Assembly (NCBI RefSeq): GCF_032116555.1
Contig: NZ_CP134949.1
Coordinates: 682,001-746,000, forward strand
Reading direction: 5' to 3'
DNA length: 64,000 nt
Source: Halorarum halobium
GTDB taxonomy: Archaea > Halobacteriota > Halobacteria > Halobacteriales > Haloferacaceae
Shown here: piece after piece, positions 54,001 through 64,000 of the stretch
Layout: the number at the start of each line of letters is the position of its first letter
Numbering within the stretch: position 1 is the stretch's first letter
Made by a program: the position numbers

Positions 54001-57000
54001 GAAGGAATTTAACGGTCAGACTTACAGTGTGTCGAACCACGCTGATTTCCGGCATACGATGCGGATTGACCCTGAAAATGGTATCTCCTACGAAGTATTG
54101 AGAGAGGCGGTCCCCTACACCTTGTCCAAGGGCTACAAGCGTGGCTTCGTGAACTTTGAGGAGGAGGTCGTGTTTCTCGTGGCCGGCGATAAGATTACTA
54201 CGACGATCCCGTTGGAGGGCTTGGAGTTTTCTGAGGACGACCCGGAGTGCCCTGAGTGTGGGACACGGATTCAGAAAACCTGTAGGAAGCCGCGGAAGTG
54301 CCGGTTCTGCAGTACGAGGATACAGACGGAGGTGGAGTATCCGAGTGCCTCCTGAGTGTGAGGACTGCGGCAACGACCTCCAGGTGAACTCGGTAGACAA
54401 GCCAAATATTGACTGGGTTAAGGTGGTCTGCAGTGACTGCGGCCATATCACCGAGGTATCGATGATTCGTGTCGTAGCTAAGTCGAAGACCGGAGGTGAT
54501 ACTGCGAGTGGCAGGTAGAGAAGATCTGGATAACTTCCAGGTGTACGTGACGGTGGCTCTGTACTTCATCGCCGTGGTGACCGTTGTCCTTTCTATCGGT
54601 TACCGGGTTCCCGCAGGCGGTGTTGCTGGTTTCTCGTTGATGATCAGCTCTTACCTGTACGAACGGGTATCGATCTTCATAGAGCAAGTTGACGAGGGTG
54701 GTGCGTGATTTCGGAGAGCTCTCCTTTCGCGGTCAACGCCGTCCAGAGAGTCGACCACTACATGGAACTGATGGACGTCGACGAGGAGGACCTGGGCCTG
54801 ATTTTGGCACCGTGGCTTCGAGAGTACGATGATATCAGGACCGGCGAGCTCCTGGACAAGGAGGACCGGTACTTCGAAATGCACGTCCACGGACGCGACG
54901 TCGACGCTCTACGAGATCCTGACGTTGACGCCAGCTACGAATTTGACGCGGTAATCGAGTTCGACTACGACGACCTGGATGTGGAGGAGTTCCTTGACGT
55001 GGAGTATCGGACGTGGATTAACGTGTTCGAGGAGGAGTTCCCGGATGCAGAGCTGTGTTATCCGGAGCCGGACGACCACTTCTGAGGGAATACGTATCTT
55101 TGGCTATCTGTACTGGTTGATGAGTTCGCGGATGTCGTCGGAGTCTACGTAGAGACCTTGCAGACGGGTGGTTCTGTCTGCTTCTTTCAGCAGCATGTCG
55201 CCGTCGCCACCGAGTTCCTCGGCTCCGCCCTCGTCGATCAGGATCCGTGAGTCGGACTGCTTCGGGAGGCGGAAGGCTACCCGGGTGTCCAGGTTGGCAC
55301 GGAGATCCGTGTCGATGGCCTCGTGCGAAGGCCGCTGGGTCGAGATAACGAGGTGGACGCCTTGCGCCCGTGCGATCTGGGCGATACGCCGCACGTTGTC
55401 CTCGGTGTCGTCAGCGTCTTCTCCCAGCTGCTGGAGCAGGTCGCTGTATTCGTCGATGATGACGACGATTGGCTTCATCTGGTCGTCCGGGTTCTGCTCG
55501 TTGTACTCTCCGATGTCCCGGCAGACGCTTTCCCGCAGCAATTGTTTTCTACGCGGGATTTCTTCGTCGACCAGCCACTCGAACAGGTCGGCTGCGTCCT
55601 CCGAGTCGGTGATCACCTCACCATTGGCAAGGTTCGGCAGGGCGTCGAAGAAGATGAAGTCGGTCTCCTTCGGATCGACCAGGGCGAACTCGACGTTGTC
55701 CTCGCCTTTCTGCTCGATGAAGTTGAAGATCAGCGAGTACAGGAAGACGGTTTTCCCGCCGCCAGTGGCACCTCCGACCAGCATGTGAGGGGCTTCGGAA
55801 AGATCGGACCGGTAAACCTCCCCGTCGGGTGTGACTCCTGCGAGGTAGGGCAGTGAGGCAGTGTCGATCTCGTTGGAAGGCAGGTACTGGTCTCTGTAGT
55901 CGCGGAGGGGTACGGCGACGTTGTTCTCACGTGGGACGTCCAGGGCTACGTACTCTGTGCCTGGTAGTCGCTGGACGATGGGTTCTTTCTCGAACGCCAT
56001 TTCCCGGGCGATGTCCTCTGTTCGTTGTTCCAGAGGACTCTGTTTTTCGCCAGCTGCTAACCGGATTTTGAACCGGACGACGTTTGGTCCGACCTCGATG
56101 TCATCTGGGTCGATATCCCGGATGTTGATTTTGAAGTCGTTGAGCACCCGTTTCAGGGTCTCGACTAGCTCTGAGTACTCTTCTGGGTCGCCGAACCGCT
56201 TAGTGGGCTTCGCTTCGACTTCCGTTTCTTCCTCGTCTTCTTCGTCTGTCTCCTCGTCTTCTCCAACTTCGTCTTCGGATTCGTCGGGTTCAGTTTCTTC
56301 CTCTATTTCTTCTTCGACGTCTTCTTCGACGTCTGGCTCTTCCGTGTCCTGGTCTTGTTGCTTCTCCTCCCGGTCTTCGATTCCGCTGACGATGAGGCGT
56401 TTGATGGACTGCCGTGGAAGCCTGTCGAGTCGGATGGACTGTGCGTTCGGCGTGACTCCGTCGATGCGTTCGTCCGATGTCCCTTCATCGGTGACTTCAA
56501 CGGAGATGATTCGGGGATTGATCTCGATCTGAGCGTCTCCCTTGAACACGTCGTTGATGCGGTCAGCCCATTCCTGCTTGCCCTCCATCGCTTCAGCGGA
56601 CGTGAGTTCGTAGTACAGCTGTTCCCGGAGTGCTTCTTTCCGGGGCGAAGTAGTGATGTTGCTGTCGCCGGTGAACAAGCCGCGGATGGTGTCCGTCGTT
56701 TCGAATACCTGGTCGACGGCACTTCCCTTGATTACCGGTGTGTCCTCGTCTCGTGAGATTGTGTACGCGCTGCTGGTCTCCTCGAGTGTTTTTATCTCGA
56801 TTATATCGAGGATGAGGCCGCCATCGTCATCGAATTGGACGGTAAGGATGTCTGCCCGGCTCTCGCTGTCGCCCAGGTTCAACCATTCTCTGGTCCGCGG
56901 GTTGTCGATGGAGAAGATTAGCTTGGGATCTGCCAGTGTCTGTTGCAACCACTGGACTGCGATGATCGAGCCAAGCAGCCCTTTCGTGTTACGGGATTTT

Positions 57001-63000: not shown

Positions 63001-64000
63001 GAACGGCCAGTAGTACTCGGGGTCGTCGTCTATTCCCAATAGGTAGTCCTGGGCGTTTTCGGCGAGATCGATGCCGTAGACGATACGCCGTGATTCGTGC
63101 TTGAGCAGGTCGGTTTCCAGTCCGCAGTTCTTCAATCCTCGCCGGATCTTGCGGATGCGGGGGGAGACGCCTTCTCCAAATCTACCTCGGACGACTTTCC
63201 GACCTTCCTCAAATTGGGTGACTTGACTTAGTCGCTTCCTGGTCTTCGGCCCAAATTGGATTGAGCCGTATCCCTCAGTGTATCCGATCTGGTCGTACTC
63301 GATCCGGCCTCTCTCGGTCGGGACTCTCACCCGGTCATACTGGGCGCTTCCAATCTCGAATAGTCCGGTTGTGTCGAGGAAGACCAGCTCATTCGGCTTC
63401 GTCAACGCTTCTCCTTTCATCGAGCTGGCGATCTCGCTCTGGTTATCGCCGTATTTGTCCTGGTACATGTTGATGACCTTTGGACCGGTCAAGGCCATCG
63501 CCACGAGTTTGCCACCCAGGATACGATTGTAGGGCGGGATAGCACCGCAGACCATGATGTTCATCATACCGGCCCCGACGCGCTCCTTCTTGAGCTCTTT
63601 CAGAGCGGTTTTGATAGCCCGGCGTCCGGACTCGTTGTTCAATCCGGTGTGGATGAACTCCTCGTCGTCCTGGTCGCTGTGTTCTTGGAAGTACTTCCTG
63701 TCTCGCAGGAGTTTCTGAAGTGCGCGTGCCCGCTTCTTCCTGAACAGGGCTGTCTCGCTGCGGTCCTCCCAGGAGTCCATCTTCTCCGGGTTTTCGTCTT
63801 CCCCGTCTTCGATGGTCTGCTCGGCTTGCTGCTCGATTTCTTCCAGGATTTCGATAACCTGTTCATCAGGGTTAACGAAGCTTTCGTCGGACAGTTCCGG
63901 ATGCTCCTCGACGAAGTCGTCGTACCGGATGTTGGCGATCGCGTTCCTGATGGAGTCCACTAGAGCTTCACGTATATCGGAGCAGAACTGGCTGACCCGT

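What a model noticed while it worked through the whole genome (the two positions that open the first line are those of the whole stretch)
55104..64000. Four-gene cassette joining Druantia DruA to SspFGH-like proteins, with no phosphorothioate-modification genes in the gen [...]
Inside the 97-kb fusexin element lie four co-oriented genes: g00738 (DruA/DUF4338, 704 aa), g00737 (SspF/DndF-like P-loop protein, 517 aa), g00736 (SspG-like, 500 aa) and g00735 (1535 aa, C-terminal FtsK/HerA-type SspH-like translocase). I read it as a chimeric defence system in which DruA takes the place of the DNA phosphorothioation module (SspABCD) as the self/non-self or sensing part of an SspFGH-type effector. New would be a Druantia-Ssp hybrid, which would tie the still unexplained DruA to a known effector class and show SspFGH working without PT-DNA.
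Evidence so far: PADLOC: g00738 DruA1 5.4e-147; g00737 SspF 4.5e-15, DndF 2e-6; g00736 SspG 8.4e-16; g00735 SspH 2.2e-66 (residues 1190-1532), mad8, HerA. Pfam: DruA 4.3e-36; FtsK_SpoIIIE 1.3e-31, FtsK_alpha 1.4e-11; weak nSTAND3 for g00737. No Dnd/Ssp modification family in pfam.tsv (only the housekeeping PAPS reductase g01814; call 139); no DruB, DruD or DruE hit in the element (one weak DruC row, 2.6e-7, for g00724; call 135; only 16 of its ~110 proteins were scanned with PADLOC). g00736 found in 5 of 401 sampled Halobacteriales genomes, 5 genera of 4 families, 77-85% identical; in 4 of 4 of those relatives all four genes lie in the same order with 75-87% identity while the 12 other genes of the element t The finding spans contig positions 737104 to 746923; this window holds only 737104 to 746000 of it. 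[...]
(Added by a program. Inside this text positions count along the whole contig: contig position 682,001 is position 1 of the stretch shown here. "Call 12" and the like, gene names such as g00115 and contig names such as C1 are that model's own, and its searches are not shown. The text may have been shortened before it was handed on; [...] marks where a part breaks off. The agent that wrote the report below was given it as the finding of a first reader that could run no searches.)

Follow-up and report, generated by a model that had tools for sequence, protein, structure and literature searches.

The report
DruA-linked DndFGH-type defence cassette
A salt-loving archaeon carries a four-gene anti-virus cassette whose layout was already catalogued by computer analysis, but its unexplained first enzyme folds most like a phage enzyme that chemically marks DNA, so it may be the missing 'self' label of this and of the Druantia defence.

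Summary
The four genes are real, intact and operon-like. The same order occurs in 4 of 4 haloarchaeal relatives, and DruA lies upstream in 67 of 67 informative loci picked by the G gene. No DndC or DndD was found in the genome. The two points claimed as new are in print: Rakesh, Aravind and Krishnan 2024 describe phosphorothioate-independent, archaeal DndFGH and a DUF4338 GNAT fused to DndF. Of 32 long DruA homologues, 31 carry this F protein as a fusion, so this locus is the split form. 'Ssp-like' is too narrow: the SspH hit covers only the FtsK domain, and G and H also hit MADS Mad7/Mad8. What stays open is DruA's job. Two independent DruA models rank phage Mu Mom first among 48,161 chains, by less than 1 Z; profile comparison with Mom was negative. 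Druantia I is reported to mark adenines without a methylase. In all four relatives the single DruA also neighbours a Druantia DruE helicase. My best reading (0.5) is that DruA writes a Mom-like adenine self-mark and FGH cuts unmarked DNA; this is untested. The scan noted fused forms on other DNA before (e1-6749182, e1-5891976).

The parts
62809..64000 (-). 3' part of druA (DUF4338/PF14236), 704 aa in full (contig 744809-746923); GNAT fold with a large helical insert; proposed writer of a DNA self-mark
   Evidence: model pLDDT 94.7; best structural match Mu Mom Z 9.5, rmsd 3.9, 173 aligned, next GNAT 8.8
61217..62770 (-). DndF/SspF-type P-loop protein, 517 aa; Walker A 57-64 and Walker B asparagine N113 invariant in 37 homologues
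   Evidence: matches the C-terminal half of 31 of 32 long DruA homologues
59708..61210 (-). DndG/SspG/Mad7-type protein, 500 aa; predicted DNA-binding subunit (triple winged helix taken from the literature, not modelled here)
   Evidence: SspG 8.4e-16, MAD7 5.9e-8, alignment
55104..59711 (-). DndH/SspH/Mad8-type protein, 1535 aa; PD-(D/E)XK nuclease motif D954/E972/K974, FtsK-alpha 1170-1260, FtsK ATPase 1285-1462
   Evidence: N-terminal regions hit MAD8 in 15 of 36 homologues

Best explanation
A restriction-modification-like defence carried on a mobile element. Shown: F has an intact nucleotide-binding loop, H has conserved nuclease and FtsK motor motifs, DruA has a GNAT fold, and the four genes travel together. 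Inferred from Dnd/Ssp biology: FGH binds and translocates DNA and cuts DNA that lacks a self-mark. Inferred and least certain: DruA writes that mark by transferring an acyl or aminoacyl group to adenine N6, as phage Mu Mom does, so that a GNAT modification replaces phosphorothioate (Dnd/Ssp) or methyl (MADS) marks. One DruA could license both FGH and a Druantia I helicase where both are present.
For: Coupling: DruA upstream in 67 of 67 informative G-selected loci, 32 clusters at 90% identity; PF14236 in exactly the same 5 of 401 genomes as G; DruA-F fusions. No other modifier linked: 0 of 78 flanking genes from 43 loci hit methylase, Dnd or Ssp modification models; no DndC or DndD in G000 and four relatives; no DndD in five Bacillota genomes. 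SspFGH is toxic without its mark (PMC8092258 passages). Two DruA models only about 25% identical to each other each rank Mom first of 48,161 chains with 173 of 202 residues aligned. Druantia I gives an adenine signal at CAGCTGNC with no methylase gene known (bioRxiv 2024.04.14.589459); CAGCT fits Mom's SASNY consensus. DruA joins different effectors (FGH; DruB-E; MORC-type ATPase) and occurs without any such effector among DNA-metabolism genes of a lytic Pelagibacter phage, with 145 viral relatives.
Against: The Mom lead is under 1 Z in both searches, which the tool counts as tied (9.5 vs 8.8; 8.6 vs 8.1). Profile-profile comparison with Mom gave nothing above shuffled controls, and Foldseek found no PDB match at E<=0.001. 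By eye, Mom's R111, S124 and D149 have no identical counterpart in DruA; only Y159 pairs with invariant Y529. One metagenomic locus, L293, has DruA cut to its last 181 of 680 residues with F, G and H intact, and L272 has a frameshift near the DruA start. The published reading is a protein-acetylating back-up effector. The Druantia I mark was called m6A and not assigned to DruA. No expression or function data.
Confidence: 0.5

Rival explanations
1. FGH is a stand-alone restriction machine, and DruA is an accessory back-up effector that acylates host proteins or tRNA to arrest the cell when restriction fails (the reading of Rakesh et al. 2024).
For: DUF4338 is listed with HEPN, NERD and kinase domains as variable fusions to DndF, and most DndFGH systems have no modification module. 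Ordinary GNATs are tied with Mom. L293 keeps FGH with a cut DruA.
Against: In this clade DruA is not optional (67 of 67). Druantia I marks host DNA without a methylase. Lytic phages carry stand-alone DUF4338 genes.
Confidence: 0.22
2. DruA is a regulator or sensor: it acylates or binds F (or DruE) and keeps the nuclease off until infection, without marking DNA.
For: Frequent fusion to F suits a partner that works inside the complex; Mom's key residues are not kept.
Against: The same fold serves unrelated effectors and occurs alone in phages, which a substrate-specific regulator explains poorly; it leaves the Druantia I adenine signal unexplained.
Confidence: 0.18
3. DruA belongs to a Druantia I system, FGH is only a neighbour in a defence island, and G000 has lost druB-E.
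For: A DruE lies beside the cassette in 4 of 4 haloarchaeal relatives.
Against: DruA is co-oriented with FGH and divergent from druB-E in three relatives; DruE was seen within the flanks of only 6 of 51 DruA-FGH loci; FGH-only loci are basal in the haloarchaeal DruA clade; fusions exist.
Confidence: 0.05
4. FGH reads a phosphorothioate or methyl mark made elsewhere in the genome.
For: One locus, L018, has a PbeA gene next door; G000 has one unlinked N6/N4 methylase; SspBCD were not searched with models of their own.
Against: No DndC or DndD in five haloarchaeal carriers; G000 has one PAPS-reductase locus only; the cassette moves between genera without a linked modifier.
Confidence: 0.05

Closest known systems
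GNAT(DUF4338)-DndF variants of stand-alone DndFGH (Rakesh, Aravind, Krishnan, NAR 2024, PMC10853773)
   Same: DUF4338 directly before a DndF-type kinase fold with Walker B asparagine, then G, then H with nuclease and FtsK-alpha/FtsK; no PT genes; archaeal cases reported.
   Different: Here DruA and F are separate genes; the paper reads the GNAT as an optional protein-targeting co-effector and the main-text sections I read do not link it to Druantia or Mom. Its supplement could not be read and may list split forms.
SspABCD-SspFGH (Wang et al. 2021, PMC8092258) and DndABCDE-FGH
   Same: Three-gene F-G-H module with Walker A in F and FtsK in H; weak SspF, SspG and DptF profile hits.
   Different: No PT modification genes found; the N-terminal 1,120 residues of H do not hit SspH or DndH models; a GNAT gene stands where the modification operon would.
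MADS (mad1-8; bioRxiv 2023.03.30.534895)
   Same: G hits Mad7, H N-termini hit Mad8; an FGH-like module used without PT.
   Different: No methylase, specificity subunit or Mad3/4 beside it (MADS gene functions partly recalled); all scores far below the curated cut-offs.
Druantia type I (DruABCDE)
   Same: DruA family member (E 5.6e-147); relatives carry druB/D/E-like genes next door.
   Different: G000 has no DruB, D or E; DruA is the long form with a helical insert.
Phage Mu Mom (adenine N6 hypermodifier, PDB 8BV8, PMC13219725)
   Same: Best structural match for two DruA models; GNAT core.
   Different: 10-12% identity, no profile-level similarity, key residues not kept; Mom shields phage DNA, while DruA here is cellular and tied to a nuclease.

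Membership tests
DndFGH superfamily (Rakesh 2024 definition) | F-G-H three-gene operon | tested here: met
DndFGH superfamily (Rakesh 2024 definition) | DndF with canonical Walker A and asparagine in Walker B | tested here: met
   Walker A 57-64 and N113 invariant in 37 sequences; DptF hit in 10 of 37 members, below cut-off
DndFGH superfamily (Rakesh 2024 definition) | DndH with active REase motif before a HerA/FtsK ATPase | tested here: met
   D954, E972, K974 at least 90% conserved in 36 sequences; FtsK_alpha and FtsK_SpoIIIE
DndFGH superfamily (Rakesh 2024 definition) | DndH N-terminal domains (inactive SF2 domain, beta-sandwiches, TRD, inactive methylase) | tested here: inconclusive
   only sequence profiles tried: MAD8 in 15 of 36, no PADLOC DndH/SspH, no PDB match; not folded
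DndFGH superfamily (Rakesh 2024 definition) | DndG triple winged helix | not tested
   not folded; only SspG and MAD7 profile hits
GNAT(DUF4338)-DndF variant | DUF4338 GNAT domain N-terminal to DndF | tested here: met
   met as adjacent split genes; fused in 31 of 32 long homologues; GNAT fold
SspABCD-SspFGH | Linked sspBCD or other PT modification genes | tested here: not met
   none among the element proteins scanned or 78 flanking genes of 43 related loci; no DndC or DndD and one PAPS-reductase locus in G000; SspB and SspC not searched genome-wide
SspABCD-SspFGH | Full-length similarity to SspH | tested here: not met
   hit confined to 1190-1532; 0 of 36 N-terminal regions hit
MADS | N6-adenine methylase and specificity subunit in the operon | tested here: not met
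   no PF02384 in G000; none in flanks
Druantia type I | DruE helicase with DruB-D | tested here: not met
   best G000 match to DruE is 25.7% over 518 aa, 2 Mb away; no DruB or DruD match
Mom family adenine modifiers | GNAT fold closest to Mom | tested here: inconclusive
   first rank twice, margin under 1 Z
Mom family adenine modifiers | Sequence or profile similarity and Mom's essential residues R111, S124, D149 | tested here: not met
   hhalign at shuffle level (the Mom alignment was shallow, Neff 2.6); residue pairing by eye only
Mom family adenine modifiers | Modifies adenine in double-stranded DNA | not testable with these tools
   needs LC-MS or SMRT sequencing

The most novel reading that the evidence does not exclude
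DruA/DUF4338 is a cellular Mom-like enzyme that puts an acyl or aminoacyl group on adenine as a host self-mark. DruA-FGH(-SfsA) would then be a widespread restriction-modification class built on a GNAT hypermodification, the same enzyme would be the unassigned writer of the Druantia I mark, and in haloarchaea one DruA would license two unrelated effectors (FGH and DruB-E).
Probability: 0.4. Interest if true: 0.85.

Novelty: new member of a known kind. Interest (0 to 1): 0.5.

Why it matters
The architecture is known in silico but untested. Two open questions meet here: how most DndFGH systems avoid cutting self DNA without phosphorothioate, and which gene writes the adenine mark of methylase-free Druantia I. 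This clean four-gene cassette, in a genome without PT genes or DruE, makes both testable with one LC-MS or SMRT experiment. A positive result would add a GNAT-based chemistry to the host self-marks listed in a 2026 review (methylation, phosphorothioate, 7-deazaguanine; PMC12904381 passage).

Tried and rejected
Read-through fusion of druA and F: gap 38 nt, out of frame; gaps vary across relatives. Sequence search of PDB with DruA, G, H-N-terminal and F profiles: nothing specific. Foldseek PDB: no match at E<=0.001. PHROGs: only unnamed weak families for DruA. ESM Atlas: only DruA clusters. Mom-DruA profile comparisons: negative, at shuffle level (Mom HMM against compact DruA). Search for shorter DruA forms gave mostly fragments. 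Gene-decay test (is DruA ever lost while FGH stays?): inconclusive, too few events and mixed with assembly breaks; 83 of 131 loci fully intact, one clear counter-case L293. A DruA-F complex prediction was not obtained, so binding is untested. No attachment repeat over 16 bp and no tRNA at the element ends. Palindrome avoidance in the element could not be tied to this system. Literature searches that found no paper calling DruA Mom-like or a DNA modifier: (open-access PMC and bioRxiv only; subscription papers, the Rakesh supplement and preprint supplements were not visible and may bear on this).

Full report
Observation. The window is G000:C1:682001-746000. Four minus-strand ORFs lie head to tail: druA (704 aa; its 5' part is outside the window), F (517 aa), G (500 aa) and H (1535 aa). 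They sit in a stretch of about 97 kb with GC 0.537 against 0.709 in the flank, with an integrase and a fusexin1 gene (E 1.8e-150 to 7P4L). G was found in 5 of 401 Halobacteriales genomes and the DruA family in exactly the same five. The four relatives keep the order at 75-87% identity. G000 gave no DndC match, no DndD above cut-off, one PAPS-reductase locus, no PF02384 methylase and one distant N6/N4 methylase. The four relatives also lack DndC and DndD by the same queries. SspB and SspC were not searched genome-wide.

What F, G and H are. F has an invariant Walker A and a Walker B asparagine (N113) across 37 homologues, the DndF signature given in PMC10853773 (section 20); 10 of 37 members hit DptF weakly. 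G hits SspG (8.4e-16) and MAD7 (5.9e-8). H has a conserved PD-(D/E)XK motif (D954, E972, K974), FtsK-alpha and an FtsK ATPase. Its SspH score comes from the FtsK domain alone: 0 of 36 N-terminal regions hit SspH or DndH models while 15 of 36 hit MAD8. The module is therefore a separate branch of the DndFGH/SspFGH/Mad6-8 superfamily, not specifically Ssp.

Prior art. I read the abstract and sections 12, 19, 20, 21, 22 and 25 of Rakesh, Aravind and Krishnan 2024; the supplement could not be opened. They report DndFGH in 1798 taxa, all eight dnd genes in only 316, DndFGH in archaea, and a GNAT 'annotated as DUF4338' among domains fused to DndF, read as a back-up effector on proteins. Among the best 150 DruA homologues, 32 are longer than 850 aa and 31 of these carry a C-terminal match to this locus's F. 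The locus is thus the split form of a catalogued fusion. Two earlier notes of this scan describe fused forms on other DNA and name the same paper; I had found the paper and formed the self-mark reading before seeing them.

Range and coupling. Of the 79 best DruA loci kept from 541 matches in species genomes (biased towards close relatives), 43 have F, G and H downstream, 8 have one or two of them, and 28 have none, some being cut by contig ends. Most non-archaeal cases are Bacillota, where an SfsA-like nuclease gene usually follows H (31 of 37 listed following genes by N-terminal likeness, 3 of 3 confirmed in Pfam); the haloarchaeal cassettes lack it. Starting from G instead, 67 of 67 metagenomic loci with enough upstream DNA have DruA before F; 13 of 80 were set aside as too short or miscalled. 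The G query came from DruA-linked genes, so this shows coupling within the clade only. None of 78 flanking genes from 43 loci hit a methylase, Dnd or Ssp modification model; one locus has PbeA beside it. No DndD above cut-off was found in five Bacillota carriers.

In three of the four haloarchaeal relatives a divergent operon of DruB-like, DruD-like and DruE1 genes starts just upstream of druA, and in the fourth a DruE1 faces the end of H. Each genome showed one DruA gene. G000 has no such genes. In a FastTree tree the haloarchaeal DruA proteins form one clade (support 1.0) with FGH-only loci at its base; deeper nodes are weak, and redundant or short rows were left out. Other long DruA genes follow a MORC/GHKL ATPase (11 of 11 tested) and often adjoin Druantia I genes. 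DruA is thus shared among unrelated effectors, much as one PT mark serves both SspFGH and SspE (PMC8092258 passages).

What DruA may do. The model of this DruA is confident (pLDDT 94.7). Against 48,161 chains its best match is phage Mu Mom (Z 9.5, rmsd 3.9, 173 of 202 aligned), followed by ordinary GNATs from Z 8.8. A compact Druantia I DruA, about 25% identical, gave the same first rank (Z 8.6, rmsd 4.0, 173 aligned; next 8.1). Both margins are under 1 Z, so the fold is surely GNAT but only suggestively Mom-like. Profile comparisons with a shallow Mom alignment were no better than shuffled controls. By eye only Mom Y159 has an identical invariant partner (Y529), while R111, S124 and D149 do not, so the chemistry may differ. 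Ojima et al. (bioRxiv 2024.04.14.589459; passages and part 2 of 3 read) saw a PacBio adenine signal at CAGCTGNC only with Druantia I, called it m6A, and noted that the system has no methylase and the gene is unknown. Mom's product is also seen by SMRT, and its consensus is SASNY (PMC13219725 passages), which CAGCT fits; this is a loose motif and a weak hint. A DUF4338 gene stands without any effector among DNA-metabolism genes of a lytic Pelagibacter phage, with 145 viral relatives, as a protective DNA modifier would. SspFGH is toxic without its mark, and here DruA is the only constant companion of an FGH with an intact nuclease motif.

Against. Besides the negative sequence tests, L293 keeps intact F, G and H behind a DruA cut to 181 of 680 residues; it may be silent or misassembled, but it is a counter-case. 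Haloarchaeal DruA has glycine at two positions that are serine in about 100 of 109 homologues (G480, G520). Many DndFGH systems have no modifier at all. There are no expression or functional data.

Verdict. A real, conserved defence cassette and a new, split, archaeal member of a kind already catalogued in silico. The claims of a new Druantia-Ssp hybrid and of PT independence are not new. The reading that DruA writes a Mom-like adenine self-mark was not found in the open literature searched and is cheaply testable; I put it at about even odds as the mechanism, and 0.4 for the full novel case. Other papers were seen as passages only: bioRxiv 2025.09.15.676423, 2026.05.12.722862, 2025.08.05.668817, 2023.03.30.534895, PMC12904381, PMC12707154. 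The gene make-up of MADS beyond those passages is recalled.

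Noticed in passing
window 48271-51941 (+): Short prokaryotic Argonaute system 4 kb from the cassette: Aga_REase_Archaea (6.7e-80), pAgo_I (3.3e-145) and a following 235-aa gene with no family.
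   Followed up: no
window 43227-44534 (+): Orc1/Cdc6 replication initiator inside the element.
   Followed up: no
L003:8183-10105 (contig 782183-784105): Fusexin1 gene near the right end of the element (E 1.8e-150 to 7P4L); integrase at window 7282-8283; HerA/VirB4-type ATPases at 26742-28142 and 31609-33156.
   Followed up: partly
L023:19722-20444, L032:13766-14467, L040:11048-11728 and about 28 more: In Bacillota an SfsA-like nuclease (about 230 aa) follows H as an apparent fifth gene; it hit no PADLOC model.
   Followed up: partly
L047, L050, L063, L071, L076, L078, L080, L081, L084, L087, L088 (gene before druA): A MORC/GHKL ATPase directly precedes long druA in many loci without FGH, with or without Druantia B-E nearby; possibly a two-gene module.
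   Followed up: partly
L148:5674-6972 (Pelagibacter phage Mosig) and L153-L232: Stand-alone phage DUF4338 gene, conserved in marine viral contigs; candidate phage DNA-modifying enzyme. The DruA fold also matches uncharacterised giant-virus proteins and weakly a Haloarcula tailed virus protein.
   Followed up: partly
L152:3064-11778, L009, L010, L012: Haloarchaeal Druantia I-like operon (484, 611, 1808 aa) divergent from druA-FGH; the middle gene hits DruD only weakly.
   Followed up: partly
L021 and L022 (one Halobaculum plasmid): Two copies of the cassette on one plasmid, both with broken genes.
   Followed up: no
contig 688000-785000: Several six-base palindromes are absent or rare in the element (GAATTC 0 against 23.9 expected; GGCGCC 0 against 17.7), as is CTAG; suggests restriction-site avoidance by the element.
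   Followed up: no
L018:7037-9298 and 20880-22211: DruA-FGH flanked by a DUF262-type gene and pbeA, so it may coexist with a PT system there.
   Followed up: no
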